From an uncultured Acidobacteriota bacterium (GTDB lineage: Bacteria > Acidobacteriota > Thermoanaerobaculia > Multivoradales > SZUA-115): a stretch of 64,000 nt of DNA. The position numbers and the translations under genes were made by a program. The stretch lies in NCBI GenBank assembly GCA_963805975.1, contig CAWDVR010000001.1, positions 1,120,001-1,184,000 on the forward strand, in the 5' to 3' direction. Below, in pieces: positions 1-16,440 of the stretch. The notes below the pieces were generated by a model. It was given only the letters and a program-made list of their open reading frames with translations. It searched no databases and had not been told where the DNA came from. Every line of letters begins with the position of its first letter. The stretch's first letter is position 1.

Positions 1-1205
1 ATCGAACAGCGCCCGGTCGTAGATCCACAGGCCGCGCAGCCCGTCGCCCTCCGGCCAGACGTGGAGCTCGAGGTCGAACCGCGTCCAGCGCACCTCAGGG
101 ACCACCCGCGAGATCGCCACCTCCGCCGCCGGCAGCGTCGGGCTGGGCGGCATCTGGTACGCGAACACCACCTGGAAGAACGGGTTGCGGGAGAGGCTGC
201 GAGCCGGGGCCAGCTCCTCGACCAGCTTGTCGAAGCCGAGATCCTGGTGGGCGTAGGCGCCGAGGGCGGCGGACTTCACCCGCTCGATGAGTCGGCTGAA
301 CGTGGGCTCACCGGTGAGATCGCCCACCATCACCAGGCTGTTGACGAAGAGACCGATCAGGTCCTCGATCTCGAGCCGGTCGCGCCCCGCGACCGGCGAA
401 CCGACCGCCACTCGCTCCTGCCCGCCGGCCCGCGCCAGCCAGGCGAGGAAGGCCGCGAGGAGGGTCATCGCCGGCGTCGCGCCGGCGCGCCGCCCGAGGG
501 CGCGGAGGGGGCCGAAGAGGTCCGGCGGCAGATCGGCGTCACAGCTCGCGCCCTGGTACGCGGGATGCGTCGGCCGCGCCCGGTCGGTCGCGAGACCGAG
601 CGGCGGCAGCTCGCCGAGCGCCTGGCGCCAGAACTCGAGGTGGGGAGCGATCGCCTCCCCGTGCTGCCATTGCCGCTGCCAGACCGCGTAGTCGGCATAG
701 CGGGCCGGCAGCTCGGCGAGACGCGGCGGACGGCCTTCGCAGCCCGCGGCGTAGAGCTCCGCGATCTCGCGGTGCAGGATGGCGAGAGAGGTGCCGTCCG
801 AGACGATGTGGTGGTGGGTGAGGAGGAGATGATGCTCGCTCGCCCCGAGGCGGAGCAGCCACGGCCGGAAGAGGGGGCCTCGCACAAGGTCGAAAGACCG
901 CTCCGCCTCCTGACGGGCGAGCTGGCGCGCCGCTGCCAGGCGCTTGCCCCCAGCGAGCCCGGCGAGATCGACGACCGGCAGGTCCAGGTGGCCGGGCGAC
1001 TGCACCACTTGGGCGGGCCGGCCGCCGGGGGCCGGGAAGACCGTGCGCAGGACATCGTGGCGGCGGACGATCTCCCGCAGAGCCAGGCCGAGCCCCCGCG
1101 GATCCAGCTCGCCCTGCAGCTCGAGGGCGAACGGGGTGTTGTAGAACGGGTTGTCCGGCACCAGCTGCTGCAGGAACCACAGGCGCTGCTGGGCGAACGA
1201 AAGGG
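1..1205 (-). other. NRPS module 4 condensation domain (LCL-type), continues out of window
   Basis: PLSFAQQRLWFLQQLVPDNPFYN..RHDVLRT..THHHIVSDGTS..IGLFVNSLVM..NPFFQV. Confidence 0.85.
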
Positions 1206-4200
1206 GGGCCGCGGCACCATGGCTCGCCGGACCGGCGAGGCCAGCCACCAGCGGTGGCGGCGGTGATCCATGATCGCGGGCGAGGGCCGCCTGGAGGCAG
1301 CGGGCGACCCCGGCGACCGTCGGCGCCGCGAACACGTCGGCGAGCGGCAGCTCGACCTGGAAGACGTCGCGCAAGCGGGCGAGGGCGCGGGCGAAGAGCA
1401 GCGAATGGGCCCCGAGGTCGAAGAAGTCGTCGGCGACGCCGAGCCGGGAGACGCCGAGGGTCTCGCTCCAGATCTCGACCAGGATCTCCTCGAGGCCGCT
1501 CCTGGGAGCGAGGAGGCCGGCCGCCGGCCGCTCAGCGGCGTCTTGCCGCGCGGAGCTGCCGGCGCGGAACACCTCTGCGGTCCGCAGCGCCAGGGCGGTG
1601 CGGTCCACCTTGCCGTGGCGGGTGAGCGGCAGAGCGTCGAGGAAGACGAAGAACGAAGGCACCAGGTGGGCGGGCAGCAGGCGTCCGAGGCGCCGGCGGA
1701 GGAGGGCGGCGTCGAGCTCGTCCTCCGAGCCCGGCGCGCGCACCACATAGGCCACGAGATGGCGGTCCTCGTCCGCCATCTCGTGCACCACCACTGCCGC
1801 TTGCGCGACACCCGGCTGGGCCGCCAGGGTCACCTCGACCTCGCCCGGCTCGACGCGGAAGCCGCGGACCTTCACCTGCTGGTCGAGCCGGCCGAGGAAC
1901 TCCAAGGTGCCGTCGGCGCGGAAGCGGGCGCGGTCGCCGCTGCGATAGAGCCGGCCGGGACCCAGAGGGTCGGGCACGAAACGCTCCGCCGTCCAGCCGG
2001 GCCGGGCGAAGTAGCCGCGGGCGAGGCCGCTTCCGCCGATGCACAGCTCGCCGGGAACGCCGATCGGCACCGGGCGGCCACGGCGGTCGAGCAGCACGAC
2101 GCGGGTATCGCCGATCGGCCGGCCGATCGGGATGGGCTGGTCGGGGTCGCCCCCGCCCGGTCCCGTCATCGCGTGACAGGCGGCGAAGGTGGTGCTCTCG
2201 GTCGGGCCGTAGCCGTTGACCAGCCGGGTGCCCGGCAGAGCCGCGAGGGCGGCTCGCACGTGCGCGGGCGAAAGCACGTCGCCGCCCGCCAGAAGCTCCT
2301 CGACGCCCGCCAGGGCCGGCAGCTCCGAGTCGACCATCTGGTGAAAGAGCCCCGCGGTCAGCCACAGGCGGTTGACCCGGTGCCGCACGATCGCCGCCCC
2401 GATCTCGGCGAGGGACAGCCGGCCGGCCGGCGGCAGCACCAGCCGGCCGCCTTGCAGCAAGGTACCCCAGATCTCCAGGGTGGCGGCGTCGAAGGCGGTC
2501 GGCGCGAGCTGCAGGAAGACGGCCCGGGAGGAGAGCGTCATGAACCCGCCGTGCCGCACCAGCCGCACCACGCCGCGATGGGGCACGGCGACCCCCTTGG
2601 GCTCGCCGGTCGAGCCGGATGTGAACATCACGTAGGCGAGGTGATCCTCCGTCGTCGCCGTGACCGGCGGCGTGCCGGGCTGCCTGGCGAGGAGCGGATC
2701 GTCGAGGTCGACGTGCGGGCCGTGATCCGCGATGGCCAGGTCCGCGCCGGCAGTCAGACGCGCGGACCTCTCGCCGAGCACGAGCCCGCCCGGCGGTACG
2801 ACGAGGCGGAGCATGCGAGCGAGGCGCTCCGGCGGGGAGGCGGGATCGAGGGGCACGTAGGCGCCACCCGCCGCGACGACGCCGAGGAAAGCGGTGATCG
2901 CGGCGGGCGATCGCTCGCGGCAGACCGCGACCGGCGTGTCCGGGCCGACGCCGAGCTGCCGCAGGCGGTGGGCGAGCCGGTGGGCGCGTAGCGCGAGGCC
3001 CTGGTAGCTCAGCAGCTCGCCTTCGCCGTCCACGGCGATGGCTTCCGGCCGTGCCGCCGCCTGCTCGGCAAACAGCTCGTGGAGGGTGCCCGCGACGGGC
3101 TGGGAGGGGGCCTTGTCGCTCCACTCGAGGGTCAGCTGCTGGCGCTCGGCGGCCGACAAGGGCAGGAGACGATCGGGCTCGGCGAGCGGCCGGGACACCA
3201 TCTCGGCCAGGGCCGCGACGTGGTAGCCCAGCCAGCGGGCGATCGCCGTCGCCTCGAACCGGCCGGCGTCGTAGCGCAGGTCGAGGACGATCTCGCCGCT
3301 CGTCGGGTCGAGGTGGACGTTGACGATCAGCGGCAGGTCGGTCGCTTCGTGGAACACCCCGCCGCGGATCCCGATGCCGCTGCCGGCAAGCTCCCGGTAG
3401 ACGTGGAAGTGGACGAAGTTGAACGCCACGCCGAACAGCGGGCGGCCACGGAGGCGGCGCAGTTCGGCGAGCGGGAAGCGGCGATGCGGGTGCTGCTCGC
3501 GCTCGGCTGCGGCGCAGCGCCGGACGAGGTCCAGCCAGGTGTCTCGCCCGGCCTCGAGGTGGAGCGAGGTCTCGACCTGGAACGGCAGGGTGTTGAGGAA
3601 GAGGCCGAGGACGCGGTCGCCGTCCGTGGTCTCCTGCCGGCCGTTCCACACCAGACCGGTGGTCGGACGGGAGGTGCCGCAGAGGGTGGCGAGGGCCTGC
3701 AGGTGGGCTGCCAGGAGGACGCTCTTGACCGGCGCTCCGGCCCGGGCGGCGACTGCCGGCACACCTGCCGCGACCGTCGCGGGGAGCGACCGGCGCAGCT
3801 GGCGCACGGCGGGTGGCCGCGACCGCTCCCGCGCGGCGAGCCCCCACGCGGTGAGACTGGGCAGCTCGGCCGGCTCGTCGGCGGTCGCGGCCAGCCAGAA
3901 GCGCCGGCTCGCGGTGGCGGCGAGGCTGCGGCCCTCGAGAGCGACGTAATCGCGGAAAGTGGCTCGCGGCGGTGCCGGCGCCAGCGAGCTCGCCCCGGTC
4001 GCCAGGGCCGACCAGGTGGCGAGCAGCTCGGTGAGCAGCGAGGCGACGCTCCAGCCGTCGAGGATCACGTGATGGAAGCTCAAGGCGAGCTGGAGGCAGG
4101 TAGCGCTGCGCAAGTGGACGTGGCAGCGCAGGAGCGGCGGCCGGCCGAGATCGAAGGGGCGCGCCTTCTCTCGCTCCACCCAGGCCAGGACGGCGGCCGT

Positions 4201-7200
4201 CTGGTCCGCAGGAGCGAGCCGCCGGAGGTCGGTCACCGCGAACGGCATGCGCGCCCGGCTGTGCACCCGTTGCAGCGGCTCGGCGAAGCGCGCGAGGTCG
4301 AACGAGCTGCGCAGCACCGCGTGGCGCTCGACGATCCGCTCCCAGGCCAGCACCAGCGCCGCGAGGGAGAGGCCTTCGACCGCGATCTCGTAGCTGAAGA
4401 CGTCGTGGTAGAGGCCGAGCCCGGGCGCGTCACCCGCCTTCGCCACCATTCCCCACTGCAAGCGAGTCAGGGGATAGGCGTCCTCGACGTCGCCTGGCAG
4501 GACGCGGCGCTCGGCGGCGCTCAGCAGAGCGAAGGGCAGACTGGGCTCCTCCTCGTGGGTGCCCCCGCCGGCCAGGCGCGCCAGCTCGCGCACGACGGGA
4601 TGCCGGAAGAGGTCTGCGACGGTGAAGGAGAGGCCGCGAGCCGCGGCGCGGGAACGTACCTGCAGGCTGTGGATCGAGTCCCCACCGAGGTCGAAGAAGC
4701 TGTCGCCAGCGCTCACCCGAGCCCGGCCCAGCACTTCGCCGAAGATCGCCGCGAGAGTTTCCTCGGCCTCGTTCGCGGCCGGCACGAAGGGCCGCTCGGC
4801 GGGCAGCTCTGATATGAGGGCGGGAGCCTGGCGGACGAGCGCTGCGCGATCGACCTTGCCGTGCAGGGTGAGGGGCAGGGCTGCGACCGCCAGGTAGGCG
4901 GCCGGCAGCATGGCCTCCGGCAGCAGGCGGCGCAGCGCCGCCCGCAGCTCGCTGGCCGGCGCTGCCGGGCCCGGCGCCTGGGGCACCACGAAGGCGATGA
5001 GCTGACTGCCGCTCTCCGCATGCGGGAGAGCGATCACCACCGCCTCGCCCACTCCCGGCTGCCGGCGCAGGGCGGCTTCGATCTCGCCGAGCTCGATGCG
5101 GTGGCCTCGAACCTTGACCTGGTTGTCACGCCGGCCGAGGTAGAGGAGGCTGCCGTCCGGGCGGTGGCGGGCGAGGTCGCCGCTGCGGTAGAGCCGCTCT
5201 CCGGGCAGGCCGGCGTGGCCATGGGGACGGAAGCGTGCGGCCGTCTCGGCGGGCCGGCCCCAATAACCGCGGGCGAGCCCGGCGCCACCGACCCAGATCT
5301 CCCCCGGTGTCCCGATCGGCACCGGCTCGCCCCGGCCGTCGAGGAGGTGGACCTCGAGGTCGGCGAGCGGGCGGCCGATCGGGCTGCCGCCGCCCGCGTG
5401 GAGCGGCTCGAGGGTCACGTGGACGGTGGTCTCGGTGATCCCATAGAGATTGAGCAGCCGGGGACGGGCGGTGCCGAAGCGGTCGAACCAGCTCGCCAGC
5501 GATCCGGCATCGAGCGCCTCGCCGCCGAAGATCACCCGCCGCAGCCGCCCGCTGCCCGCCGCCGCCGCGACGGCTACCTCCTGCAGGCCGCGGAAGGCGG
5601 AGGGCGTCTGGTTGAGCACCGTCACGCCCTCGCGCAGCAGCAAGCCGTGCAGCTCGTCCGGCACCCGGCCGACCGCCGGGGGCACCAAGACCAGCCGCCC
5701 GCCGTGGGCGAGCGGCCCCCAGATCTCCCACACCGAGAAGTCGAAAGTGTGGGCGTGGAACAGGCACCAGACGTCGTCCGGCCCGAACCCCACACCGTCG
5801 CGGGTGACGGCGAAGAGGCGCAGCAGATTGTGGTGGGAGACCGCCACCGCCTTCGGCCGGCCGGTCGAGCCCGAGGTGAAGATCACGTAGGCGATCTGCT
5901 CGCCGAGGATCGGCGGCGCCGCGAGCGCCTCCCCTGTCGTGCCCGCTGGGTCGTAGCCGTCGAGATCGATCGGCTCGACTCCCGGCGGTGGCTCGAGCGG
6001 CGAGGAGCCGTGGACGAGGAGGAGCGTGGCGCCCACCTCGCGCAGCATGCGGTGGGAGCGCTCCGGCGGGTGGGCCGGGTCGAGGGGAAGGTAGAAGCCG
6101 CCAGCCTCGAGGACGGCGAGGATCGCGACGATCAGAGCGGGCGAGCGCTCGAGCCCGAGGCCGACGGGCGTCTCCGTGGTCACCCCCAGCGCGCGGAGCC
6201 GGCGGGCGAGGTGGCTCGCCCGGCGTCGCAGCTCGCCGTAGGAGATCTGCTCGGCCCCGCCACCCAGCGCGCCGCCGACCAGGGCTACGGCATCCGGCTG
6301 CCGCTCCGCCACCCGGGCGAAGAGCTGGTGGATCGCCGTCACCGAGTCCGCGTCCCGAGCGCGCACCGCCGGGTTCCACTCGTGGAGGACCTGCTGCCGT
6401 TCGGCCGCGCTCCAGGGTAGGAAGCGCTCGTGCCTGGCCGCCGGGTCCGCCGCCATCGCCGCCAGGGTCCGCCGGTAGCACGCCGACCAGCGCTCGATCT
6501 CCGTGTCGTCGAACCGGCGGCGATCGTGAGCGAGGAAGAGCCCCGCCTGCCGGCCGTCGGGCTCGAGATGGAAGTTGAGCAGCAGGGGTAGATCAGTCGC
6601 CTCGACGAAACGACTGTCCAGGATCGCCAGCTCGCCCTCGTGCCGCGCGAGGTCGCGGTAGACGTAGTAGTGGAAGAAGTTGAACGCAGTGTCGAAGAGC
6701 GGCTGGCCGTCCCGCAGGCGGCGTATCTCGGCCATCGGATAGCGGCGGTGGGGCAGCACCTCGCGCTCGTGCGCGAGGGTTCGCCGGACGAGGTCCACCC
6801 AGCTGCCGGCCGAGAGGGACAACCGGAAAGGGACCGTGTTGAGGAAGAGGCCGAGAATGCGGTCGCCGTCCTCCTCCTCCGGACGGCCGTGAAGCACCAA
6901 CCCGGTGGTCACCCGCCCAGCGCCGCAGAGCCGGCCGAGGACCGCGAGGTGGGCGGCGAGGAGGACACTCTTGAGAGGCGCCTCCGCCTGGGCGGCGAGG
7001 CGGCGCAGGCCGGCGGTGATCTCCGGCGAGAAGGCGAGCGAACGCTGCTCGACCTCGCGTGGAGCGGCCGCTACCGGCGCAGTCCCGCCGGCCAGCCAGG
7101 GCGGAGCCTCGTCGGTCTCTCCCTGCCAGAAGACGCGGTGCTCCCCGGCGGCCAGAACCGCCTGCTCGAGGGCGACGAAATCCCGAAAGTGACCCTGCGG

Positions 7201-10200
7201 CGCGGCCGGCAGGGCTGCTAGCTCGTCCTGCCGGGCAAGATAGGTGGCGAGAAGCTCGGTGACCAGGGACGCCAGGCTCCAGCCGTCGAGGATGGCGTGA
7301 TGGAAGCTCAGAGTGAGCTGGAAACGGCCGTCTCCCCGCGGGTGCGCCTGGCAGCGCAGGAGGGGCGGCCGCGCGAGGTCGAACGGCCGTCGTTTCTCGC
7401 TCGCGATGGCAGCCGCGATCGCACTTTCCTGGGCGATGGCCGGCAGGCCACGCAGGTCGGTCACCGCCAGGGGCACCACGGCACGCCAGTGCACCCGTTG
7501 CAGCGGCTCGCCGAAGCTCCCGAGGTCGAAGGAGGTCCGCAGGGTCGGATGCCGGCGGACGACGACTTCGAGGCTCCGTCGCAGCCGCCGGGCATCGAAG
7601 TCGCCGCGCAGATGGTAGGTGAAGACGTCGTGGTAGAGGCCGGCCTCGCCCTCCGCCTCGCCGTGAAAGAGCATGCCGGCCTGGAGCCGGGTCAGGGGAT
7701 AGGCGTCCTCGACATCGGCCGGAAGTCGTTGCCGGACCTCGGCCGGGACGAGCGCGAAGGGCCTCGGGCGAGGGACGGTACCGCCAGGAACCGCCTCGCC
7801 CGCCAGCTGGGCGAGATCCGCGATCACCGGATGGCGGAAGATCTGCTCCAGGGTGAGCGCGAGCCCGACCGCCGCGGCGCGCGCGCGGATCTGCAGGCCG
7901 CGGATCGAGTCCCCACCGAGATCGAAGAAGCTGTCGAGGACGCCCACCTCCCGGTGCCCCAGGACCGCCGCGAAGATCTCCGCCAGCCGCTTCTCGGCCG
8001 GCGTTTCCGGCGCCTGGTACGGCCGGCCCCGGCGGGCTGCCGCATGAGCCTCGCCGCCACGGAGCGCATGGTGGGCGAGGGCGGCACGGTCGAGCTTGCC
8101 ATTCACCGTCAGCGGCATGGCGGCCAGCACCACGAAGCTCGCCGGGATCATCGACGGCGGCAGGATCGCGGCGAGGTGGCGGCGCAGGGCCGGAGCGCTG
8201 AGGGCCGGATTCAAGATGCCGGAGGACGCTCCGGACGCCGGGTCCGCCGGTGTCACGACCGCGACGAGCCGGGCCGGCTCGTCGCGGTCCCGGTGGACCA
8301 GGACGGCGGCTTCCCCGACCGCCGGGCAGCGGGCGAGGGCGGCCTCGACCTCGCCGGTCTCGATGCGGAAGCCGCGGATCTTCACCTGCTGGTCGGTGCG
8401 GCCGAGGTACTCCAGACGGCCATCCGCCCGGCGGCGGGCGAGGTCGCCGCTGCGGTAGAGCCGGGCGCCGGCGTCCCGACTCCAGGGATGGGGCAGGAAG
8501 CGGCTGGCGGACTCGGCGGGCCGCTGCCAATAGCCACGGGCGAGCCCGGCGCCCCCGACGTGGATCTCCCCGGTGACCCCCAACCCTACCGGCTCGCCGC
8601 GGCGATCGAGGAGGTAGGTCTCCCAGGCCGGCAGGGGCCGGCCGATCGGACTCGCCGGGGAGCAGCTCTCTATCTCCGGGCGGCCGATCCGCTGGCAGGT
8701 CACGTGGACCGTGGTCTCGGTGATGCCGTAGAGATTGAAGAGCCGCGGCTCACGATCGCCGAAGCGCTCGATCCATGGCCGCAGGCTTTCTGGCGTCAGG
8801 GCCTCGCCGCCGAAGACGATCTGCCGGAGCGGCGGCTGGGCCGGAGCCGTGAGGGCCACGTCTTGGTAGCTGCGAAACGCCGACGGGGTCTGGCTGAGCA
8901 CCGTCACTCTTTCGCGCGTGAGCAGCCCGTGGAGCTCCTCCGGCTCGCGGCTCACCCAATAGGGGACCACGACGAGCCGGCCCCCCTGCGCGAGCGCTCC
9001 CCAGAGCTCCCACACCGAGAAGTCGAAGCTCATCGCATGGAAGAAGCTCCAGACGTCGTCGCGACCGAAGCCCACGTGGGCCTGGGACTCCGCCAAGAGG
9101 CGGACGACGCTCGCGTGGGTGACCGCGACGCCCTTGGGCCAGCCCGTCGAGCCCGAGGTGTAGAGCAGGTAGGCGAGTCGCTGCGGCAGCTCCGGCGTCA
9201 GGTCCCAGGGCTGGGCCGCGGTGGCGATCACCGGTTCGCGGCCCAGCTCCGGCGCCAGGTCCATGGGGAAGGAGCCGTCCGTCACCAGCGCGACCGGCGC
9301 GGCGTCGGCGAGCACCCACGCCAGGCGCTCGCGGGGCAGCTCGGGGTCGAGAGGCACGTAGAAACCGCCAGCGGCGAGGATGCCGAGGATCCCCGCCACC
9401 ATCTCTTCGCCGCGGCCAGCGCAGAGGGCAACCGCTTTCTCCTCCGCCACGCCTGCAGCGCGGAGCCGGCCGGCGAGGTTCCAGGCCTGCCGTGCGAGCT
9501 CGCCGTAGCTCAGCTGGCGGCCGTCGCAGACGACGGCCACGGCATCCGGTCGCTCGCTCACCCGGGCCGCGAAAAGCGCATCGAGAGTCCCTCCCGCGGT
9601 GGAGCTGCCCGGCTCGTGCTCCTCGTGGATGAGCTGGTGCCGCTCGGCGCGCGCCATGAGCGGCAGGCTCCCCACGGCCTGGCTCGGGTCCGCCACCACG
9701 CCCGCGAGGAGCCTCTCGAGCTGTCGCGCCCAGCGCTCGATCGTGGTGTGGTCGAAGAGGTCGCTGCGATACTCGAAGACCAAGCGGAGACCGTCCCCGA
9801 TCCGCGCCGTCTGCACGACGAGATCGAAGGGGCTGTGGTCGCGCGGCAGGATGTCCCCCTCCATGCGCACCTCGCCGTCCGCACCAGGACGCAGGAGGCG
9901 ATGCTGCACCATCACCACAGAGTAGAGGTTGGCGAGGGCCGAGATCCCTGGGCGGGCAATCAGCCCGCCGACCAGCTCGTTGGGAAAGTCCTGATGCCGG
10001 GCGAGGGCCGCGACGGCCGTGCTCAGTCGCCCGAGACTGTCCAGGAAGGGCTGGCCGGCGGACCAGTGAGTCGGCAGAGGCAGCGTGTTGGCGAAGTAGC
10101 CCAAGACGCGCTCGTGGAGCCCCTCGGGATGGGAGCGGCCGTGGAAAGGCACTCCGAGAATTACTTCGCGCTCGCCTGAAACACGGTGGAGAAACGCCGC

Positions 10201-11025
10201 GAAAGAGGCCAGCAGGACCCGAAAGAGACTCGTCTCGCTCTGCCGCTTCAGCTCTTCGAGGCCAGCCACCAGCGTCGGTCGCAGCTGCCACTCGACATCT
10301 GCCGCCGCACCGACCGGGGTTGCCGGGCGAGCTCGGTCCGTCGGCAGCGCGAGCTGCGTGGGCGATGAGCCCAGGGTCTCGCGGAAGAACCGGGCATGGG
10401 CCTCATAGGTGTCGCTGCCGATCGCGAGCCGCTCCCGTTGCCAGGCGGTGAAGCTCGGGTAGGGGAGCCCAGGCTCGAGCTCACCGCCGTGATAAATCGC
10501 CGACAGATCCTCCACGAAGATCTGGGCCGCCGTGGCATCCATGACGAGATGGTGGGCGAGCAGCAGCAGGCGGTGCTCCAGTGCGGAGAGCCGGAGCAGG
10601 AGGAAGCGGTAAAGCGGCCCGGCTTCGAGGTCGAACGGCTGGCGCAAGGGAGCCAAGAGGCAGGCGGAGATGGCCCGAGAGCCTGGCGACCGAGGAAGGC
10701 AGGAGAAGTCGACACAGGGGCAGCGAAGCGGGGGCGTGGCTTCGACCCGCTGGACCGGATCGCCCGCGATCGGCTCGAAAACGAGGCGGAGGGCCTCGTG
10801 GTGCTGGACGAGCCGGCGAAGCGCCTGGATCAACCGGCCCGGAGCGAGCGGACCGCTCAGCCGGATGCTGTAGCCGAGGTTGTAGAGGGACGTCCCCGGC
10901 GCGAGCTGCTCCATGGCCCAGAGAGCTGTCTGGCCATAGGAGAGAGAGACGGCCTCACGCCTGGACGACGTCCCCATCGTTCCATTCCGTGCACCGCGAG
11001 CCCCAGGCTTCCCGCGCGCTCCCAT
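1..11025 (-). CDS. Multimodular non-ribosomal peptide synthetase, 3'-partial (>3,675 aa): C-A-T-C-A-T-C-A-T-C...
   Basis: ATG at 11025 (alternative 10977). Absent from the ORF track, consistent with no in-frame stop before base 1; the long + strand shadow ORFs all sit in one antisense frame. Manual translation gives C motifs HHLVMDA (~10545), HHAILDG (~7295), HHVILDG (~4065), HHIVSDG (~805); A3 motifs YLLYTSGSTGWPKG, YVIFTSGSTGRPKA, YVMFTSGSTGEPKG; PCP motifs FFDLGGDSI (~7915, ~4685) and FFDLGAHSL (~1410). Confidence 0.95.
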   Translation of the reverse strand, partial: MGARGKPGARGARNGTMGTSSRREAVSLSYGQTALWAMEQLAPGTSLYNLGYSIRLSGPLAPGRLIQALRRLVQHHEALRLVFEPIAGDPVQRVEATPPLRCPCVDFSCLPRSPGSRAISACLLAPLRQPFDLEAGPLYRFLLLRLSALEHRLLLLAHHLVMDATAAQIFVEDLSAIYHGGELEPGLPYPSFTAWQRERLAIGSDTYEAHARFFRETLGSSPTQLALPTDRARPATPVGAAADVEWQLRPTLVAGLEELKRQSETSLFRVLLASFAAFLHRVSGEREVILGVPFHGRSHPEGLHERVLGYFANTLPLPTHWSAGQPFLDSLGRLSTAVAALARHQDFPNELVGGLIARPGISALANLYSVVMVQHRLLRPGADGEVRMEGDILPRDHSPFDLVVQTARIGDGLRLVFEYRSDLFDHTTIERWARQLERLLAGVVADPSQAVGSLPLMARAERHQLIHEEHEPGSSTAGGTLDALFAARVSERPDAVAVVCDGRQLSYGELARQAWNLAGRLRAAGVAEEKAVALCAGRGEEMVAGILGILAAGGFYVPLDPELPRERLAWVLADAAPVALVTDGSFPMDLAPELGREPVIATAAQPWDLTPELPQRLAYLLYTSGSTGWPKGVAVTHASVVRLLAESQAHVGFGRDDVWSFFHAMSFDFSVWELWGALAQGGRLVVVPYWVSREPEELHGLLTRERVTVLSQTPSAFRSYQDVALTAPAQPPLRQIVFGGEALTPESLRPWIERFGDREPRLFNLYGITETTVHVTCQRIGRPEIESCSPASPIGRPLPAWETYLLDRRGEPVGLGVTGEIHVGGAGLARGYWQRPAESASRFLPHPWSRDAGARLYRSGDLARRRADGRLEYLGRTDQQVKIRGFRIETGEVEAALARCPAVGEAAVLVHRDRDEPARLVAVVTPADPASGASSGILNPALSAPALRRHLAAILPPSMIPASFVVLAAMPLTVNGKLDRAALAHHALRGGEAHAAARRGRPYQAPETPAEKRLAEIFAAVLGHREVGVLDSFFDLGGDSIRGLQIRARAAAVGLALTLEQIFRHPVIADLAQLAGEAVPGGTVPRPRPFALVPAEVRQRLPADVEDAYPLTRLQAGMLFHGEAEGEAGLYHDVFTYHLRGDFDARRLRRSLEVVVRRHPTLRTSFDLGSFGEPLQRVHWRAVVPLAVTDLRGLPAIAQESAIAAAIASEKRRPFDLARPPLLRCQAHPRGDGRFQLTLSFHHAILDGWSLASLVTELLATYLARQDELAALPAAPQGHFRDFVALEQAVLAAGEHRVFWQGETDEAPPWLAGGTAPVAAAPREVEQRSLAFSPEITAGLRRLAAQAEAPLKSVLLAAHLAVLGRLCGAGRVTTGLVLHGRPEEEDGDRILGLFLNTVPFRLSLSAGSWVDLVRRTLAHEREVLPHRRYPMAEIRRLRDGQPLFDTAFNFFHYYVYRDLARHEGELAILDSRFVEATDLPLLLNFHLEPDGRQAGLFLAHDRRRFDDTEIERWSACYRRTLAAMAADPAARHERFLPWSAAERQQVLHEWNPAVRARDADSVTAIHQLFARVAERQPDAVALVGGALGGGAEQISYGELRRRASHLARRLRALGVTTETPVGLGLERSPALIVAILAVLEAGGFYLPLDPAHPPERSHRMLREVGATLLLVHGSSPLEPPPGVEPIDLDGYDPAGTTGEALAAPPILGEQIAYVIFTSGSTGRPKAVAVSHHNLLRLFAVTRDGVGFGPDDVWCLFHAHTFDFSVWEIWGPLAHGGRLVLVPPAVGRVPDELHGLLLREGVTVLNQTPSAFRGLQEVAVAAAAGSGRLRRVIFGGEALDAGSLASWFDRFGTARPRLLNLYGITETTVHVTLEPLHAGGGSPIGRPLADLEVHLLDGRGEPVPIGTPGEIWVGGAGLARGYWGRPAETAARFRPHGHAGLPGERLYRSGDLARHRPDGSLLYLGRRDNQVKVRGHRIELGEIEAALRRQPGVGEAVVIALPHAESGSQLIAFVVPQAPGPAAPASELRAALRRLLPEAMLPAAYLAVAALPLTLHGKVDRAALVRQAPALISELPAERPFVPAANEAEETLAAIFGEVLGRARVSAGDSFFDLGGDSIHSLQVRSRAAARGLSFTVADLFRHPVVRELARLAGGGTHEEEPSLPFALLSAAERRVLPGDVEDAYPLTRLQWGMVAKAGDAPGLGLYHDVFSYEIAVEGLSLAALVLAWERIVERHAVLRSSFDLARFAEPLQRVHSRARMPFAVTDLRRLAPADQTAAVLAWVEREKARPFDLGRPPLLRCHVHLRSATCLQLALSFHHVILDGWSVASLLTELLATWSALATGASSLAPAPPRATFRDYVALEGRSLAATASRRFWLAATADEPAELPSLTAWGLAARERSRPPAVRQLRRSLPATVAAGVPAVAARAGAPVKSVLLAAHLQALATLCGTSRPTTGLVWNGRQETTDGDRVLGLFLNTLPFQVETSLHLEAGRDTWLDLVRRCAAAEREQHPHRRFPLAELRRLRGRPLFGVAFNFVHFHVYRELAGSGIGIRGGVFHEATDLPLIVNVHLDPTSGEIVLDLRYDAGRFEATAIARWLGYHVAALAEMVSRPLAEPDRLLPLSAAERQQLTLEWSDKAPSQPVAGTLHELFAEQAAARPEAIAVDGEGELLSYQGLALRAHRLAHRLRQLGVGPDTPVAVCRERSPAAITAFLGVVAAGGAYVPLDPASPPERLARMLRLVVPPGGLVLGERSARLTAGADLAIADHGPHVDLDDPLLARQPGTPPVTATTEDHLAYVMFTSGSTGEPKGVAVPHRGVVRLVRHGGFMTLSSRAVFLQLAPTAFDAATLEIWGTLLQGGRLVLPPAGRLSLAEIGAAIVRHRVNRLWLTAGLFHQMVDSELPALAGVEELLAGGDVLSPAHVRAALAALPGTRLVNGYGPTESTTFAACHAMTGPGGGDPDQPIPIGRPIGDTRVVLLDRRGRPVPIGVPGELCIGGSGLARGYFARPGWTAERFVPDPLGPGRLYRSGDRARFRADGTLEFLGRLDQQVKVRGFRVEPGEVEVTLAAQPGVAQAAVVVHEMADEDRHLVAYVVRAPGSEDELDAALLRRRLGRLLPAHLVPSFFVFLDALPLTRHGKVDRTALALRTAEVFRAGSSARQDAAERPAAGLLAPRSGLEEILVEIWSETLGVSRLGVADDFFDLGAHSLLFARALARLRDVFQVELPLADVFAAPTVAGVARCLQAALARDHGSPPPPLVAGLAGPASHGAAAPLSFAQQRLWFLQQLVPDNPFYNTPFALELQGELDPRGLGLALREIVRRHDVLRTVFPAPGGRPAQVVQSPGHLDLPVVDLAGLAGGKRLAAARQLARQEAERSFDLVRGPLFRPWLLRLGASEHHLLLTHHHIVSDGTSLAILHREIAELYAAGCEGRPPRLAELPARYADYAVWQRQWQHGEAIAPHLEFWRQALGELPPLGLATDRARPTHPAYQGASCDADLPPDLFGPLRALGRRAGATPAMTLLAAFLAWLARAGGQERVAVGSPVAGRDRLEIEDLIGLFVNSLVMVGDLTGEPTFSRLIERVKSAALGAYAHQDLGFDKLVEELAPARSLSRNPFFQVVFAYQMPPSPTLPAAEVAISRVVPEVRWTRFDLELHVWPEGDGLRGLWIYDRALFD
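1290..4490 (-). other. NRPS module 3: modAA-like C, Val-type A domain, PCP (GAHSL)
   Basis: DAYPLTRLQWGMV..YHDVF..EPLQRVH..SFHHVILDGWS..FNFVHFHVY. A core FDAATLE/LWLTAG/LLAGGD/NGYGPTESTTFA gives code DALWLGGTFK (Val/aliphatic). Confidence 0.8.
4580..7710 (-). other. NRPS module 2: modAA-like (dehydrating) C, Thr-type A domain, PCP (GGDSI)
   Basis: DAYPLTRLQAGMLFH..YHDVF..EPLQRVH..SFHHAILDGWS..FNFFHYYVY; A code DFWNIGLVHK. Boundaries approximate. Confidence 0.8.
7800..10950 (-). other. NRPS module 1: N-terminal (starter-position) C, Thr-type A domain, PCP (GGDSI)
   Basis: LSYGQTALW..YNL, HHLVMDA. A-domain core FDFSVWE/LSQTPS/IVFGGE/NLYGITETTVHVT gives specificity code DFWSVGLVHK, close to the Thr code DFWNIGMVHK. 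Boundaries approximate. Confidence 0.8.
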
Positions 11026-11040
11026 CCCCTGGCTTCGAGC

Positions 11041-12105
11041 CTACTTCGAGGCCCTGCGGGCCCGCTTGGGCGGGGCTTTCACTTCGGGCTCGAACCAGCC
11101 CACCGAGTCAAGCCAGGCCAGGGTGCCAGTCAACCAGGGTGGATTACCGGTTCCGCCGCCGGTGGCGATCGTCCGCAGCCGCTCCTTGATCACCTTGCCT
11201 GTGCCTTCCGGCGGCATCGTGCTGTCCTCGAGGTCGAAATCGAGCAACTCGCCGCCAAGCTTCATCGGCGGGTTCAGCCGCATGAAGTTCTCGCCGAGGA
11301 TCGACTTGCATTGGAAGTCGACCGCCATCATTCCGGACTCGAAGAAGGCTTCCACCAGGGCGAACGGCCGGCGCAGATCGAGCAACCACTGTTTCCATCC
11401 CCAGGGTGCGTTCTCCACGTTGAGACCTGAGCCCGTGAGGCCTGTGCCGACGGAGAGCAGCCGGATCTCGGTCGGTCTCATCGGCTCTCCCTTGCCTCCA
11501 AGCGGGGTGCTCAATGCCTGGGCGAGCGCGCACATGCTCGGGTTGTTGGCGTAGAGCCCGCCGTCGACGAAGCCCTGGTAGATCGGGAAGAAAATCGGTC
11601 CGGCGCTCGTCCGCAAGGCGACGTCGAGGGCCGACTGGCCGAGGTCGGGCTCCCCCTTGCCGCCGAAGTTGTTGAACACTTTCGGCTTCCAGGTCGGCAC
11701 GCCACCCTTCGCCTCGCCCATCAGATCGAAGGTCGGGATCACTACGTACTGCCCTTGCGCAGCCAGGCTGCCGAGGGTGTTCGTGCCCAGCAGGGGAGTG
11801 AGGCTGTCCTTCAGGTAAGCATTGCTGCTGATCGAGAACCAGCCGCTGATCGTCGCGAAGAGCGAGCGCAGGGGCCTTCCGGCGCTCGGGCTCTGCGACC
11901 ACAACGAGATCGACTGCTGCAGGCCGGACGCCCGGTCGGCTGCCGTCATCATAAGCAACGCGTTGATCCCGCCGGCGGAGGTGCCGGCAAAGGCGTCCAC
12001 TTGGGCTAGGAACTCGGGCCTCTTGCGCTGGATCTGCTCGATCGCGTAGAGGGAAAAGAGTGAAAGGATTCCTCCGCCGTCCATTGCCAGGATGTTGAAG
12101 GCCAT
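11041..12105 (-). CDS. Patatin-like phospholipase/acyl hydrolase
   Basis: MDGGG glycine block, GTSAG nucleophile elbow, SAGPIFF, VDGGLYANNP catalytic Asp motif. RBS AAAGGGAG. Stop lies about 15 bp before the NRPS ATG. Confidence 0.9.
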   Translation of the reverse strand: MAFNILAMDGGGILSLFSLYAIEQIQRKRPEFLAQVDAFAGTSAGGINALLMMTAADRASGLQQSISLWSQSPSAGRPLRSLFATISGWFSISSNAYLKDSLTPLLGTNTLGSLAAQGQYVVIPTFDLMGEAKGGVPTWKPKVFNNFGGKGEPDLGQSALDVALRTSAGPIFFPIYQGFVDGGLYANNPSMCALAQALSTPLGGKGEPMRPTEIRLLSVGTGLTGSGLNVENAPWGWKQWLLDLRRPFALVEAFFESGMMAVDFQCKSILGENFMRLNPPMKLGGELLDFDLEDSTMPPEGTGKVIKERLRTIATGGGTGNPPWLTGTLAWLDSVGWFEPEVKAPPKRARRASK

Positions 12106-12220
12106 GGTCTGGTTCTCCCTTTCTGCCGGTGAAAAACCTTCGCCGTGAACACAATTTCCCTGACCGAGCCTGCGAAGGGGCTCGTAAGCTCGAGCTCACA
12201 CGGTCCCTTGCACAAGCTTC

Positions 12221-12463
12221 CTACTCGACCTTGACCTTCTTTGAAGCCGGCTGCGGCTTCGCCTCCGCCGCCAGGTTGTCGATCGCGGCCTGGACGACCG
12301 AGGTATAGCCCTGGAGGATCGTGAGCCCCGCCTGCAGATAGGCGGCACGCAAGGTCTTGCTGGCGCTCGTTAAATCCGCGGTCTGCGGGGCGAGCTTGGA
12401 GAGCTCGGCGATCTGCTGCATCACGGTGCCAAGAATGTCGCTCGGACCACCCACCTGGCTCAT
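12221..12463 (-). CDS. 80-aa amphipathic helical protein with C-terminal KKVKVE tail
   Basis: Strong RBS GAGGAGGAG, 12 bp after the arsA-like stop; GC3-biased codons; periodic hydrophobic pattern with no TM segment. Confidence 0.8.
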   Translation of the reverse strand: MSQVGGPSDILGTVMQQIAELSKLAPQTADLTSASKTLRAAYLQAGLTILQGYTSVVQAAIDNLAAEAKPQPASKKVKVE

Positions 12464-12475
12464 GGTGCTCCTCCT

Positions 12476-13651
12476 CTACTTGAAGTCGATGCTCAGCTCG
12501 TTGCCTTCCATCCGGGCCTGCGTCGTCTTGAATTGGGCCAGGGAGCGCGGCAGGGCAACGTGGCGCTTGAAGCTGGAGATACGGACAATCAGCTCGTGCT
12601 CGTTACGCGTTAGGACAATCTCGTCCTTTTCGACGAAAGGCAGGACCATTTTCAGCCGGTAGATGCCATCCGCCTTTTCGAAACTGAACGGCGGAGCGTC
12701 GACCTGCCGTGCCGCCGGATCCTGGTCGCCGAACAGGACTCGTCCGACCTCGGCCAAGCGATCGATGCCCACCACCTCGTCGCCGAACAGAGGCACCCTG
12801 GAGACCGGGATCGGGTCGAAGTACTTCTCGATCTGAGCGGCGTAGTTCGCGTGGGTGCCCACCCAGCCCGCGAGGTATCCCTCGGCCGAGCTGATCAAGC
12901 GATTGATGATCACGCCGTCCGTATTCATACCGTACATGCAGAAGTACGTGTAGGCTCTCTGTGTCTCACGGACAACCATCTTCTCGGCGTTGGTCACCAG
13001 GCGCACCGAGGTGACCTCCGGGTCCTTCAGCAGCTCGTCGATCCCTTCGAGCCGCCCGAAGGCGTTCTTCAGCGAGTCGAAGTAGCTGTCCTGTGGCAAG
13101 GGATAGTCGATGAGCTTGCTGGCGATCGGACGCGCCACCTTCAGAATCGCGCGATCCGTCTTGAATCGCTTGCGAACATACCAGTCAATCGATGTCATCA
13201 GATTGACGAAGCGCAACGATTCGCTAGTCGGTGGACAATCGACGACGATCAAGTCGTAAGTATCTTCGCGGTAATGCTGATTGATCGCCATCAACGCGAT
13301 CAGATCCTCCATACCGGGCATGATGGCCACTTCCTCGGCTACGATGCCACTCATCCCCATGGAGGAGAAAAAAGCCCCGATGTAGTGATAGAGGTCTCCC
13401 CATTGCCGCTCGATCTGCTCTTGAACGTCGACCTCCTGAAGGTCGAGGTTTTCCGCCATGCGCAACGGAAGGCCCCCATGCTGATCGAACAGGCTGCAAT
13501 CGAGGTTGAAGGAATCCGAGAGACTGTGAGCGAGATCGAAAGAAAGGACGAGGGTTCGATGGCCCCTTCGGGCCGCAGCAACGGCTGTCGCCGCAGCGAT
13601 CGTGGTCTTGCCGACACCCCCCTTGCCGGAGACGAGGATCACGCGCTTCAC
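12476..13651 (-). CDS. ArsA/TRC40/Get3-family ATPase with C-terminal HSP20-like (alpha-crystallin) domain, Get3d-like
   Basis: Deviant Walker A GKGGVGKTT, DLAHSLSDS, PGMED, DCPPT (DTAPT equivalent), EKMVVRET. Single ATPase domain plus beta-rich tail YRLKMVLPFVEKDEIVLTRNEHELIVRISSFKRHVALP..ARMEGNELSIDF. Confidence 0.9.
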   Translation of the reverse strand: MKRVILVSGKGGVGKTTIAAATAVAAARRGHRTLVLSFDLAHSLSDSFNLDCSLFDQHGGLPLRMAENLDLQEVDVQEQIERQWGDLYHYIGAFFSSMGMSGIVAEEVAIMPGMEDLIALMAINQHYREDTYDLIVVDCPPTSESLRFVNLMTSIDWYVRKRFKTDRAILKVARPIASKLIDYPLPQDSYFDSLKNAFGRLEGIDELLKDPEVTSVRLVTNAEKMVVRETQRAYTYFCMYGMNTDGVIINRLISSAEGYLAGWVGTHANYAAQIEKYFDPIPVSRVPLFGDEVVGIDRLAEVGRVLFGDQDPAARQVDAPPFSFEKADGIYRLKMVLPFVEKDEIVLTRNEHELIVRISSFKRHVALPRSLAQFKTTQARMEGNELSIDFK

Positions 13652-14455: not shown

Positions 14456-14523
14456 GTTTGGAGGCGAAATCTCATCAGTGCTATTTCTTGCGCTGACCGC
14501 CGAATTTGACGGAGGAGATCGAC

Positions 14524-16440
14524 ATGTACAGGATCACTCTGATCAACATGCCCTTCTCGAACCTGAGTCTGCCGAGCCTGGCTCTGACTCAGCTCAAGGC
14601 GGTCTTAGAGCGCGATCTCGATGACCAAATACGGGTGCGTATTCTTTATCTGAATCACGATTTCTCGCACTATCTCGGGCTCGATCTCTATTTCCGTATC
14701 ACGCATGCCGTCGAGTCGAACAACTCCGGGCTCGGTGACTGGTTGTTTCGTCAGGTCGCCTTTCCTCTCGCGAGCGACAACATCCAGCAATACTTCCAGC
14801 GTTACTATCCCCAGCAAGAAGGTGGTCTCGACGTTCTCAAGGGAAAGATCCTAGCCAAGCGGGTGCGTCTCGGACAGTTTCTCGATCGGCTGATCGGCAA
14901 CTATCAGCTGGATCAGGAGGATCTAGTCGGTTTTACTTCAATGTTCGCCCAGAACGTCGCAAGCTTGGCTATGGCGCGGAAGATCAAGGACCGGAATCCA
15001 CGATGCGTCACCGTTATGGGTGGCGCCAATTGCGAAGCACCGATGGGAGCCGAGCTCGCGGCTCACGTCGAAGCGATGGACTTCATCTTCTCCGGACCCG
15101 CGCTGGTGAGTTTTCCGCAATTCGTCCGTTATCAGATCCGTGGCGAAGTCGAGGCTTGTCGAACTCTGCAGGGTGTTTTTTGTGGCGCGAACCTCGGCTC
15201 CAAACACCTCGAGGGATCTGGGGCTATCGGGGCCGAGCTGCCGATGAACATCCCGGTGCCGCTCGACTATGACGAGTTTCTGGCGCTGTTTGAGAAGAAC
15301 TTTCCTGGTGGCGACCTTCGACCCTGTCTCACCTTCGAGACCTCGCGAGGTTGCTGGTGGGGAGAGCGTTCGCATTGTACGTTCTGTGGTCTCAACGGTG
15401 GCACGATGGCTTTCCGCCGGATGCCCGCCGACGACGCAGTGGAGCTGCTGAATGGGCTCTTCTTACGTTACGGAGATCGCTGTCCTCGCTACGAAGCAGT
15501 GGACAACATCATGCCGATCGATTACATCAAGGACGTTTTTCCTCGCCTGAAGCCACCCCCGGAAGCCACGATCTTTTACGAGATCAAAGCCAACATGAAA
15601 GAGGAAGAGCTGGAGATCCTGAAGCGGGGTGGAGTCAACGAGGTCCAGCCCGGCATCGAGTCTCTTTCGACTTCCACCTTGAAGCTTATGCGGAAGGGCA
15701 CCACGAGCTTCCAGAACATTCGTTTCCTGAAAGGTTGCCTATCCGCCAACGTACGGCCGATCTGGAATCTTTTGATCGGTTTTCCCGGGGAGGAAGCTGG
15801 TGTATACGAGAAGTATCTAGCGGACCTTCCGCTACTCTTTCATCTGATGCCGCCGACCGGTGCCTTTCCCGTTCGTTTCGATCGCTATAGCCCATACTTC
15901 ACCCACTCGGATAGCTTCCGGCTAAAGCTCTCACCCTATGATTTCTACGAGATGGTTTACCCCTTCGGAACCGACTCGCTCTACAACCTTGCCTATTACT
16001 TCGAAGACCGGAACTACAACGCGAGATATATTGATAACCTGATCCTGTGGAAAGAGAAGCTCAACACGGTTGTCGATCAATGGCGTGCGCTGTGGAAGTC
16101 CGACAGCGTGCTTCCGAAGCCCGAGCTGTATCTCAAGCTGGCCGCTGACTCGTGCCCTGCCGTGGTCTTCGATTCACGAAACGGCCAGAGTGGAACGGAG
16201 CACGAGATCAGCGATCTAGGCCTCCGAGTCCTCGATCTGCTTCACGTCCGAGGGATGAGGCTGACGGATCTCGAGAGGTCCGTCGATGCGACTCCGGATG
16301 ACCTTGCGGGGGAGATCGACGGACTGCGTCGATCGGGGATCCTTTTCGAGGAGGATGGTCGCTGGATGAGCCTGGTTATCGACCGTGCGTCGCAGCTCGG
16401 ACGGATGGAGAGCTATCAGTCGCTGCCGACTCTGGTTTGA
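14524..16440 (+). CDS. B12-dependent radical SAM C-methyltransferase, RiPP-maturation (PoyB/PoyC-like) type
   Basis: LINMPF..PSLAL start, B12-binding GFTSMFAQ..MGGANC, Cx7Cx2C motif ETSRGCWWGERSHCTFCGLNG, QPGIES, WNLLIGFPGE, RFDRYSPY. RBS GGAGGAG before ATG 14524. Confidence 0.9.
   Translation: MYRITLINMPFSNLSLPSLALTQLKAVLERDLDDQIRVRILYLNHDFSHYLGLDLYFRITHAVESNNSGLGDWLFRQVAFPLASDNIQQYFQRYYPQQEGGLDVLKGKILAKRVRLGQFLDRLIGNYQLDQEDLVGFTSMFAQNVASLAMARKIKDRNPRCVTVMGGANCEAPMGAELAAHVEAMDFIFSGPALVSFPQFVRYQIRGEVEACRTLQGVFCGANLGSKHLEGSGAIGAELPMNIPVPLDYDEFLALFEKNFPGGDLRPCLTFETSRGCWWGERSHCTFCGLNGGTMAFRRMPADDAVELLNGLFLRYGDRCPRYEAVDNIMPIDYIKDVFPRLKPPPEATIFYEIKANMKEEELEILKRGGVNEVQPGIESLSTSTLKLMRKGTTSFQNIRFLKGCLSANVRPIWNLLIGFPGEEAGVYEKYLADLPLLFHLMPPTGAFPVRFDRYSPYFTHSDSFRLKLSPYDFYEMVYPFGTDSLYNLAYYFEDRNYNARYIDNLILWKEKLNTVVDQWRALWKSDSVLPKPELYLKLAADSCPAVVFDSRNGQSGTEHEISDLGLRVLDLLHVRGMRLTDLERSVDATPDDLAGEIDGLRRSGILFEEDGRWMSLVIDRASQLGRMESYQSLPTLV

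What the first reader, a model, noticed from the sequence alone, without database searches (positions are those of the whole stretch)
3190..9570. Two consecutive Thr modules each followed by a modAA-like dehydrating C domain: predicted X-Dhb-Dhb-Val start
Seen: Thr-type codes DFWSVGLVHK and DFWNIGLVHK; both PCPs are GGDSI type (normally before E or modifying domains) yet no E domain follows. The next C domains carry YPL..LQ.GM, YHDVF, EPLQ.VH, SFHH.ILDGWS and FNF.H..VY. Known: modAA-clade C domains (microcystin/nodularin, AmbE, albopeptide AlbB) dehydrate upstream Ser/Thr. Inference: tandem dehydrobutyrines, an uncommon and electrophilic motif. C2 has HYYVY where C3 has HFHVY, so the two may differ in activity.
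Basis: partly seen in the sequence, partly recalled or inferred. Interest (0 to 1): 0.7.

Follow-up and report, generated by a model that had tools for sequence, protein, structure and literature searches.

The report
Twin threonine-dehydrating peptide synthetase modules
A giant bacterial peptide-building enzyme opens with two modules predicted to load threonine, each followed by a domain of the known water-removing family, so it likely makes a peptide that starts with two dehydrobutyrines, a start already known from other bacterial peptides.

Summary
Observation confirmed. The region is modules 1-3 of one intact 14,225-codon NRPS-PKS gene (minus strand, running 31.6 kb past the window). A1 and A2 carry Thr codes, T1 and T2 are GGDSI, and no E domain follows. 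C2 and C3, plus C9 outside the window, match McyA-C and AmbE-CmodAA best and group with McyA-type domains, apart from DCL and dual E/C. Likely start: X-Dhb-Dhb-Val (about 0.65). It is not new: octanoyl-Dhb-Dhb lipopeptides (haereogladins), scabimycins and AlbB's two successive dehydrating C domains are published, and Thr-modAA-Thr-modAA recurs in 4 of 150 top hits. Caveats: 60 of 294 labelled modAA-like domains follow residues outside the Ser/Thr/Asx groups, so clade does not prove dehydration. C2 has Tyr at a His kept in 104 of 109 Thr-following domains; contigs of related strains show the same codon, so X-Thr-Dhb-Val is a real rival (about 0.2). X is unknown. Side lead: a Get3/ArsA ATPase plus small protein, with or without patatin, directly precedes an NRPS/PKS gene in 3 of 3 close homologues. 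The scan's notes showed no earlier report of this feature on other DNA.

The parts
1..11025 (-). 5' part (3,675 codons) of a 14,225-codon NRPS-PKS gene, G000:C1:1088363-1131040: C1-A-T, C2-A-T, C3-A-T, C4-T (no A), C5-A-T-E, C6-A-T to C12-A-T, KS-AT-ACP-TE
9655..10965 (-). C1, divergent LCL-like N-terminal C domain (HHLVMDA); donor X unknown
   Evidence: best PDB match Txo2 C1 177 bits, RzmA starter C 86, McyA-C 46; base of the LCL branch
8071..9558 (-). A1, code DFWSVGLVHK, predicted Thr (bounds approximate)
7807..8013 (-). T1, GGDSI (Ser codon 7906-7908)
6427..7734 (-). C2, modAA-clade C domain, HHAILDG intact; Tyr at 6664-6666 replaces a conserved His
4831..6321 (-). A2, code DFWNIGLVHK, predicted Thr; 53% identical to A1 (bounds approximate)
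4576..4782 (-). T2, GGDSI (Ser codon 4675-4677)
3172..4509 (-). C3, modAA-clade C domain, HHVILDG and HFHV intact
1591..3093 (-). A3, code DALWLGGTFK, predicted Val (bounds approximate)
1300..1509 (-). T3, GAHSL (ordinary type), before LCL domain C4
1..1224 (-). C4 (LCL), running just past the window edge and followed directly by T4 with no A domain
11041..12105 (-). patatin-like phospholipase gene ending 16 bases before the first Met of the NRPS frame; probably co-transcribed (inferred)
   Evidence: PF01734
12221..12463 (-). 80-aa protein with no family match
12476..13651 (-). Get3/ArsA-family ATPase with C-terminal HSP20-like domain
   Evidence: PF02374, PF17886, TIGR00345

Best explanation
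C2 and C3 belong to the modAA (dehydrating) condensation clade and each follows a predicted threonine module with a GGDSI carrier, so they likely remove water from the carrier-bound Thr before forming the next peptide bond, giving a predicted X-Dhb-Dhb-Val start. Steps: (1) C1 would join an unknown donor X, probably an acyl group, to Thr on T1 (inferred). (2) C2 would abstract the alpha-proton with the second His of HHxxxDG, eliminate water, then condense X-Dhb with Thr on T2 (by analogy to AlbB-C2, LgnD-C2, AzeB-C2). (3) C3 would do the same to Thr2 and add Val. C9 would make a third Dhb before a Val. Predicted whole product, from recalled codes: X-Dhb-Dhb-Val-(module 4, no A)-D-Leu-Val-Leu-Dhb-Val-(Pro-like?)-Val-(Ala-like)-malonate extension, released by the TE. 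Shown: domain order, motifs, clade. Inferred: substrates, dehydration, X, Dhb geometry, expression.
For: Best PDB matches by sequence are McyA-C (374 and 321 bits) and AmbE-CmodAA (241 and 210), far above the rest; the C2 model (pLDDT 87, built from an alignment that included McyA-type rows) ranks the same two first. Trees: C2/C3/C9 form a clade (99) inside a 23-row clade (100) sister to DCL (99) among 111 domains; with 4 McyA-type C2 domains they form one side of a branch (98), apart from 13 dual E/C and 15 true DCL domains. Catalytic His and Asp are kept in all three; the positions of AmbE R1605 and D1726 hold Lys and Glu in all three (AmbE residues). Of the 30 nearest modAA-like domains to C2, 23 follow Thr, Ser or Thr-like A domains. 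GGDS[ILMV] precedes 328 of 343 surveyed modAA-like domains with a readable T motif. C3 departs from 1 and C9 from 0 of 41 columns conserved after Ser/Thr. In vitro precedent and a collinear Thr-CmodAA-Dhb case in marinocyclin. No other dehydratase among the neighbouring genes scanned.
Against: No product or transcript seen. 60 of 294 modAA-like domains with a labelled upstream A follow residues outside the Ser/Thr/Asx groups, among them Gly, Ala and Val, including 25 in the 120-tip subclade that holds McyA and these domains, so clade membership does not force dehydration. C2 departs from 3 of 41 conserved columns, two of them adjacent (Phe358Tyr, His359Tyr); His359 is kept in 68 of 68 other Ser/Thr-following domains of its subclade. 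LgnD-C2 can condense undehydrated Thr, and dapalide B keeps Thr at the position where dapalide A has Dhb.
Confidence: 0.65

Rival explanations
1. Only C3 (and C9) dehydrate. C2, with Tyr for the conserved His, mostly condenses intact Thr, giving X-Thr-Dhb-Val or a mixture; the Thr1 hydroxyl would then be the only side-chain nucleophile among the predicted residues and could close a macrolactone.
For: His359 is kept in 104 of 109 Thr-following and 62 of 64 Ser-following domains. The Tyr codon is real: contigs from 4 runs of 2 studies cover it with no listed difference. No other hydroxyl residue is predicted for the TE. Leaky precedents.
Against: In its subclade the His is also kept in 24 of 25 domains after other residues, so it looks like a clade feature rather than a dehydration-specific one (p=0.27; the wider p=1e-5 is confounded by kinship). 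38 of 173 Ser/Thr-following domains depart from 3 or more of the 41 columns, as C2 does. The AmbE equivalent (His1705 by my count) is not among the residues the review lists as essential. T1 is still GGDSI.
Confidence: 0.2
2. Neither domain leaves a double bond: they epimerise Thr to D-allo-Thr or act as plain condensation domains, as modAA-like domains after Gly, Ala or Val presumably do.
For: 60 of 294 labelled modAA-like domains follow other residues. GGDSI carriers also precede E and DCL domains.
Against: They are outside the dual E/C and DCL clades and lack the N-terminal HH..GD motif seen in the 13 dual domains (motif recalled). Every characterised clade member after Ser/Thr that I read about dehydrates.
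Confidence: 0.07
3. Dhb forms but does not persist as Dhb-Dhb: if C1 has no donor, a free N-terminal Dhb would hydrolyse to a 2-oxobutyryl cap, or a Dhb is consumed by cyclisation or addition; or the gene is silent or stalls at module 4, which lacks an A domain.
For: C1 is not a classical starter C. No acyl ligase or ACP gene among the neighbours scanned; the genome's FAAL-type domains lie in other loci. Transient dehydro residues are known in this clade. Module 4 is C-T only.
Against: C1 keeps HHxxxD. The 42.7-kb frame is unbroken, and related strains at roughly 90% identity hold pieces across window 1-11100. C-T modules without A occur elsewhere in this genome and in relatives.
Confidence: 0.08

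Closest known systems
AlbB of albopeptide (Streptomyces albofaciens), Val-Dha-(E)-Dhb
   Same: Two successive modAA-clade C domains, each after a Ser/Thr module; shown in vitro to dehydrate before condensing (PMC10880069 section 3.3).
   Different: Ser then Thr, tripeptide, C3 releases by hydrolysis; here Thr-Thr at the start of a 12-module NRPS-PKS with a third unit. AlbB itself was not aligned here.
Haereogladins, haereoglumins, haereogladiodins, haereoplantins (Burkholderia HgdA, HgmC, HgddC, HptC)
   Same: Octanoyl-Dhb-Dhb N-terminus from (C-A-PCP)n NRPSs (PMC9581180 passages).
   Different: 5-6 residues with PABA; no antimicrobial activity found for those tested. Whether their C domains are modAA-clade was not tested here.
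McyA C domain (microcystin synthetase, PDB 8JBR) and AmbE-CmodAA (PDB 7R9X)
   Same: Closest solved structures by sequence and fold; McyA-type loci share a clade with C2/C3/C9.
   Different: One modAA domain each. McyA follows an N-methyl-Ser module; AmbE acts on a hydroxy-methoxy-Glu and the alkene shifts. C2 has Tyr where both have His.
LgnD-C2 (legonmycin), AzeB-C2 (azetidomonamide), marinocyclin module 3
   Same: Acyl-Thr or acyl-Ser on a carrier dehydrated by the next C domain.
   Different: Single events; in Lgn and Aze the dehydro residue is consumed by ring formation.
Scabimycins A-C (Streptomyces acidiscabies)
   Same: Linear peptides with Dhb-Dhb and Dhb-Dhb-Dhb (PMC8513078 passages).
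   Different: Gene cluster not identified; route unknown.

Membership tests
CmodAA / dehydrating C domains | Falls in the modAA clade with characterised members | tested here: met
   Best PDB hits McyA-C and AmbE-CmodAA; clade with 4 McyA-type domains, support 98. AlbB, LgnD and NdaA were not in the tree; NaPDoS2 was not available.
CmodAA / dehydrating C domains | Intact HHxxxDG with the second His | tested here: met
   HHAILDG (C2), HHVILDG (C3), HHAILDG (C9)
CmodAA / dehydrating C domains | Donor carrier of the GGDS[I/V] type with no E domain | tested here: met
   T1, T2, T8 GGDSI, 68-70 residues to the next C; criterion
CmodAA / dehydrating C domains | Upstream module supplies a beta-hydroxy amino acid | tested here: met
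   Thr-type codes; label recalled, not assayed
CmodAA / dehydrating C domains | Columns conserved in Ser/Thr-following clade members | tested here: inconclusive
   C3 40 of 41, C9 41 of 41, C2 38 of 41 including His359Tyr; my own empirical set, not a published definition
CmodAA / dehydrating C domains | Catalyses alpha,beta-dehydration on the carrier-bound peptide | not testable with these tools
   needs an in vitro assay or the product
DCL domains | Groups with C domains that follow E domains | tested here: not met
   C6 and McyB-type C1 fall in DCL; C2/C3/C9 do not
Dual E/C domains | Dual clade and N-terminal HH[I/L]xxxxGD-type motif (recalled) | tested here: not met
   13 motif-bearing domains lie in a separate clade (100); the motif is absent from C2/C3/C9
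Starter (lipoinitiating) C domains, for C1 | Closest to RzmA/CDA-type starter C | tested here: not met
   C1 scores 177 bits to LCL Txo2-C1, 86 to RzmA-Cs, 76 to CDA-C1; it may still accept an acyl donor
Haereo-type lipopeptide NRPS | 5-6 modules with PABA, octanoyl starter | tested here: not met
   12 modules plus PKS; only the Dhb-Dhb start is shared

The most novel reading that the evidence does not exclude
The unknown starter X is supplied by the cassette just upstream (Get3/ArsA ATPase, an 80-aa partner and a patatin acyl hydrolase/transacylase), which would be an undescribed way of priming NRPS and PKS lines that begin with a C or KS domain and have no loading module; and the natural His-to-Tyr change in C2 switches its dehydration or Dhb geometry relative to its paralogues C3 and C9.
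Probability: 0.1. Interest if true: 0.7.

Novelty: new member of a known kind. Interest (0 to 1): 0.3.

Why it matters
More useful to specialists: three paralogous modAA domains (51-54% identical), all after Thr, in one protein, one with a natural change at a nearly fixed His. [quoted passage not shown]

Tried and rejected
Frameshifted or split gene: rejected; the short ORFs are off-frame and the real frame is one 14,225-codon ORF. His-to-Tyr as an assembly error: rejected. Recent duplication of modules 1 and 2: rejected, A1/A2 53% and C2/C3 53% identical, whereas A6/A9 are 99%. His359 as a dehydration-specific residue: not supported within the subclade. The primary papers on AmbE-CmodAA (Patteson 2022) and on NocB-C5 evolution (Wheadon 2021) were not held, so their residue sets and supplements were not seen and may bear on the His. 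No RNA holder was listed; this says nothing about expression. The A-less module 4 junction was not checked against independent contigs (it lies outside the stretches laid). The patatin scan of metagenomes gave 80 loci, mostly short and distant; only the best one showed the cassette. The Atlas search of the 80-aa protein gave only hits under 0.9, and it did not align with the G008 small protein. Cluster names for the two His-to-Tyr relatives after Thr (Massilia; one unnamed) gave no characterised product. Notes searches by words found nothing. PMC13252402 passages held nothing on C-domain class. The host taxon was not determined; several named close NRPS hits are Thermoanaerobaculia, others cyanobacteria, which is only a hint.
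Full report
What is there. The stretch 3190-9570 lies on the minus strand inside one open frame that starts near window 11025 and runs off the left edge. In the laid genome this frame is 14,225 codons, G000:C1:1088363-1131040. Motif and profile parsing gives C1-A1-T1, C2-A2-T2, C3-A3-T3, C4-T4, C5-A5-T5-E, then C6 to C12 each with A-T, and KS-AT-ACP-TE. Motif-anchored codes are DFWSVGLVHK (A1), DFWNIGLVHK (A2), DALWLGGTFK (A3) and a third Thr-type code at A8; reading these as Thr, Thr, Val, Thr rests on recalled code tables. Four carriers are GGDSI: T5 before the one E domain, and T1, T2 and T8, each 68-70 residues before a C domain.

Class of C2 and C3. Against PDB sequences C2 scores 374 bits to McyA-C (8JBR), 241 to AmbE-CmodAA (7R9X) and at most 144 to anything else among 43 matches; C3 scores 321, 210 and at most 130. 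An AlphaFold model of C2 (pLDDT 87, from a 21-row alignment that included McyA-type rows) ranks the same two structures first. In a tree of 111 C and E domains from this genome and relatives, C2, C3 and C9 form a clade (SH-aLRT 99) inside a 23-row clade (100); 22 of those 23 follow a GGDS[IL] carrier within their frame and one starts its frame. The sister clade (99) holds C6 and the other DCL domains. Group labels there came from best hits to this protein's own domains, so outside references were added: loci from Microcystis, Nostoc and other cyanobacteria with McyA/McyB architecture (7 of the 9 loci; 4 McyA-type and 2 McyB-type domains used) and 13 domains with the dual E/C motif. In that 63-row FastTree, C2/C3/C9 join the McyA-type domains (98), the dual domains lie in a separate clade (100) and C6 falls with DCL (rows other than the dual set and the references were random subsamples). 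C1 is LCL-like rather than a classical starter.

Does clade mean dehydration? I parsed 262 proteins: the 120 listed of 1,666 hits and the best 150 of 52,347, 8 shared. They hold 403 full-length modAA-like domains. The upstream A code was Thr in 109, Ser in 64, Thr-like or Ser-like in 31, Asx-like in 30, other in 60 and unreadable or absent in 109. So 204 of 294 labelled cases fit Ser/Thr dehydration, but 60 follow Gly, Ala, Val and others. The sample is biased towards proteins with several such domains and my code parser is crude. The nearest 30 to C2 follow Thr (15), Ser (6), Thr-like (2), other (4) or unknown (3). Published in vitro work shows AlbB-C2/C3, LgnD-C2 and AzeB-C2 dehydrating carrier-bound Ser/Thr before condensation (PMC10880069, section 3.3 read whole; bioRxiv 10.64898/2026.07.17.738954, whole text; PMC8748450 passages), and marinocyclin has E-Dhb collinear with a CmodAA (PMC13676389 passages). 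Leaks are known: LgnD-C2 can condense intact Thr and dapalide B keeps Thr where dapalide A has the dehydro residue (PMC12481561 passages). Nobilamide Dhb arises without such a domain (PMC11766569 passages).

The C2 difference. C2 has Tyr at its position 359 (window 6664-6666) where 17 of 18 rows of alignment A2 have His. His is kept in 104 of 109 Thr-following and 62 of 64 Ser-following domains; Tyr occurs in 2 and 1 of them. Contigs from four public runs of two studies, with 2 to 8 other letters over this stretch, cover the codon with no listed difference, so it is not an assembly error. Against a catalytic role: within the 120-tip subclade with McyA the His is kept after Ser/Thr (68 of 68) and after other residues (24 of 25) alike; and C2's 3 departures from 41 conserved columns are matched or exceeded by 38 of 173 Ser/Thr-following domains. 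By my count on the alignment the AmbE equivalent is His1705, which is not among the residues the review lists as essential (H1497, R1605, D1726, D1734, Q1747). Of those, C2, C3 and C9 keep His, have Lys and Glu at the next two, Asn at the fourth like McyA, and C2 does not keep the last. McyA passages name other residues for the acceptor tunnel (bioRxiv 10.1101/2023.11.13.566838 passages). The primary AmbE paper was not held. I put C3 dehydration near 0.9 and C2 near 0.7.

How common. Thr-modAA-Thr-modAA occurs in 4 of the 150 representatives (three at the N-terminus; one Thr-Thr-Val in a Desulfopila NRPS, one in Actinoplanes), any Ser/Thr pair in 10, and any two successive modAA modules in 58. 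13 of 41 genomes searched (G000 and 40 relatives) have a C2-like domain at E<=1e-60, and three relatives have two in successive modules of one frame. In print, haereogladins, haereoglumins, haereogladiodins and haereoplantins begin octanoyl-Dhb-Dhb (PMC9581180 passages), scabimycins hold two or three Dhb in a row (PMC8513078 passages), and albopeptide has contiguous Dha-Dhb. PMC10510592, PMC10212144 and PMC13252402 were seen as passages only. I did not search the literature for this particular product, so I make no claim that it is unpublished. Dhb is a weaker Michael acceptor than Dha (own knowledge), and the haereogladins tested were inactive against microbes, so 'electrophilic' should not be stressed.

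X and the surroundings. No acyl ligase, ACP or dehydratase was found among the twelve neighbouring ORFs scanned; two FAAL-type domains over the Pfam cut-off lie in other NRPS frames and a third, under it, elsewhere. Directly upstream on the same strand are a patatin, an 80-aa ORF and a Get3/ArsA ATPase. The ATPase-small ORF pair precedes a C- or KS-starting megasynthase gene in all 3 other genomes with a strong match among 300 of the order, with a patatin between in 2, and in 0 of 23 distant homologue loci (flanks about 1.5 kb). One four-term search found no paper holding all terms. Four related genomes do not show function; this is a lead.

Verdict. X-Dhb-Dhb-Val is the most likely start (0.65); X-Thr-Dhb-Val is the main rival (0.2). 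It is a new member of a known kind: both the enzyme class and tandem Dhb are established. Interest 0.3, carried by the natural three-paralogue comparison and the upstream cassette.

Noticed in passing
window 11041-13651 (-); L036:7982-15561; L123:8320-14975 (same region as L038); L122:4063-6202: A Get3/ArsA-HSP20 ATPase plus a 76-87-aa ORF sits directly upstream of a megasynthase gene in all 3 other genomes, of 300 searched in the order, with a match at E<=1e-90 (59-67% identity): G008 and G410 with a patatin then a PKS beginning with KS, G398 with a C domain 44% like C1 and no patatin. None of 23 more distant homologue loci from the phylum (36-46%) showed patatin, C, A or KS matches within about 1.5 kb. 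A four-term search (patatin, biosynthetic gene cluster, NRPS, ArsA) found 0 papers. Role unknown: starter supply, product storage or export.
   Followed up: partly
window 1-1224 and G000:C1:1119506-1119760: Module 4 is C-T with no A domain; only about 50 residues separate C4 and T4, and T4 has a short insertion before its Ser motif. It may be skipped, loaded in trans or reloaded by A3. C-T modules also occur at C2:224317-231798 and in G020.
   Followed up: partly
G000:C1:1088363-1092400 (L001:4363-8400, -): The line ends in KS-AT-ACP-TE with no KR after an Ala-like module, which would give a beta-keto extension and possibly a tetramic acid/pyrrolinone or methyl ketone end (inferred from recalled precedents). 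The AT has GYSLG and LAAH instead of the usual motifs.
   Followed up: no
window 14506-16440 (+): B12-type radical SAM C-methyltransferase (TIGR03975, 516 bits against a cut-off of 282), divergent from the cluster in a low-GC stretch (0.55-0.59 at 12-16 kb).
   Followed up: partly
L013:2419-20000, L014, L016, L018 (G009, G020, G037): Three relatives share a cluster with Asn-T(GGDSI)-modAA-Asn-T(GGDSI)-modAA-Asn, next to Ser-modAA and, in two, Thr-modAA modules. modAA after Asn also occurs in G000 (C5:218578-227565) and G001. Could be dehydro-Asn via hydroxylation, or bleomycin-like addition chemistry (recalled).
   Followed up: no
proteins P0009, P0011, P0025, P0087, P0116, P0121-P0133: Many modAA-like domains follow Gly, Ala, Val/Ile or other non-hydroxy codes, and some NRPSs have 3-6 in a row after mixed residues. 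What these do (epimerise, plain condensation) was not explained in the papers read here.
   Followed up: partly
G000:C1:1112327-1112995 and 1102787-1103455: A6 and A9 are 99% identical and C7/C10 are sister tips: a recent internal duplication or gene conversion of a Val-A-T-C unit.
   Followed up: no
G000 C1:1019109-1062020, C2 and C5 NRPS loci: Other NRPS clusters of this genome break into overlapping frames, as long-read indel errors would cause; this gene does not. One divergent long-branch C domain lies at the end of C1:1056003-1062020.
   Followed up: no
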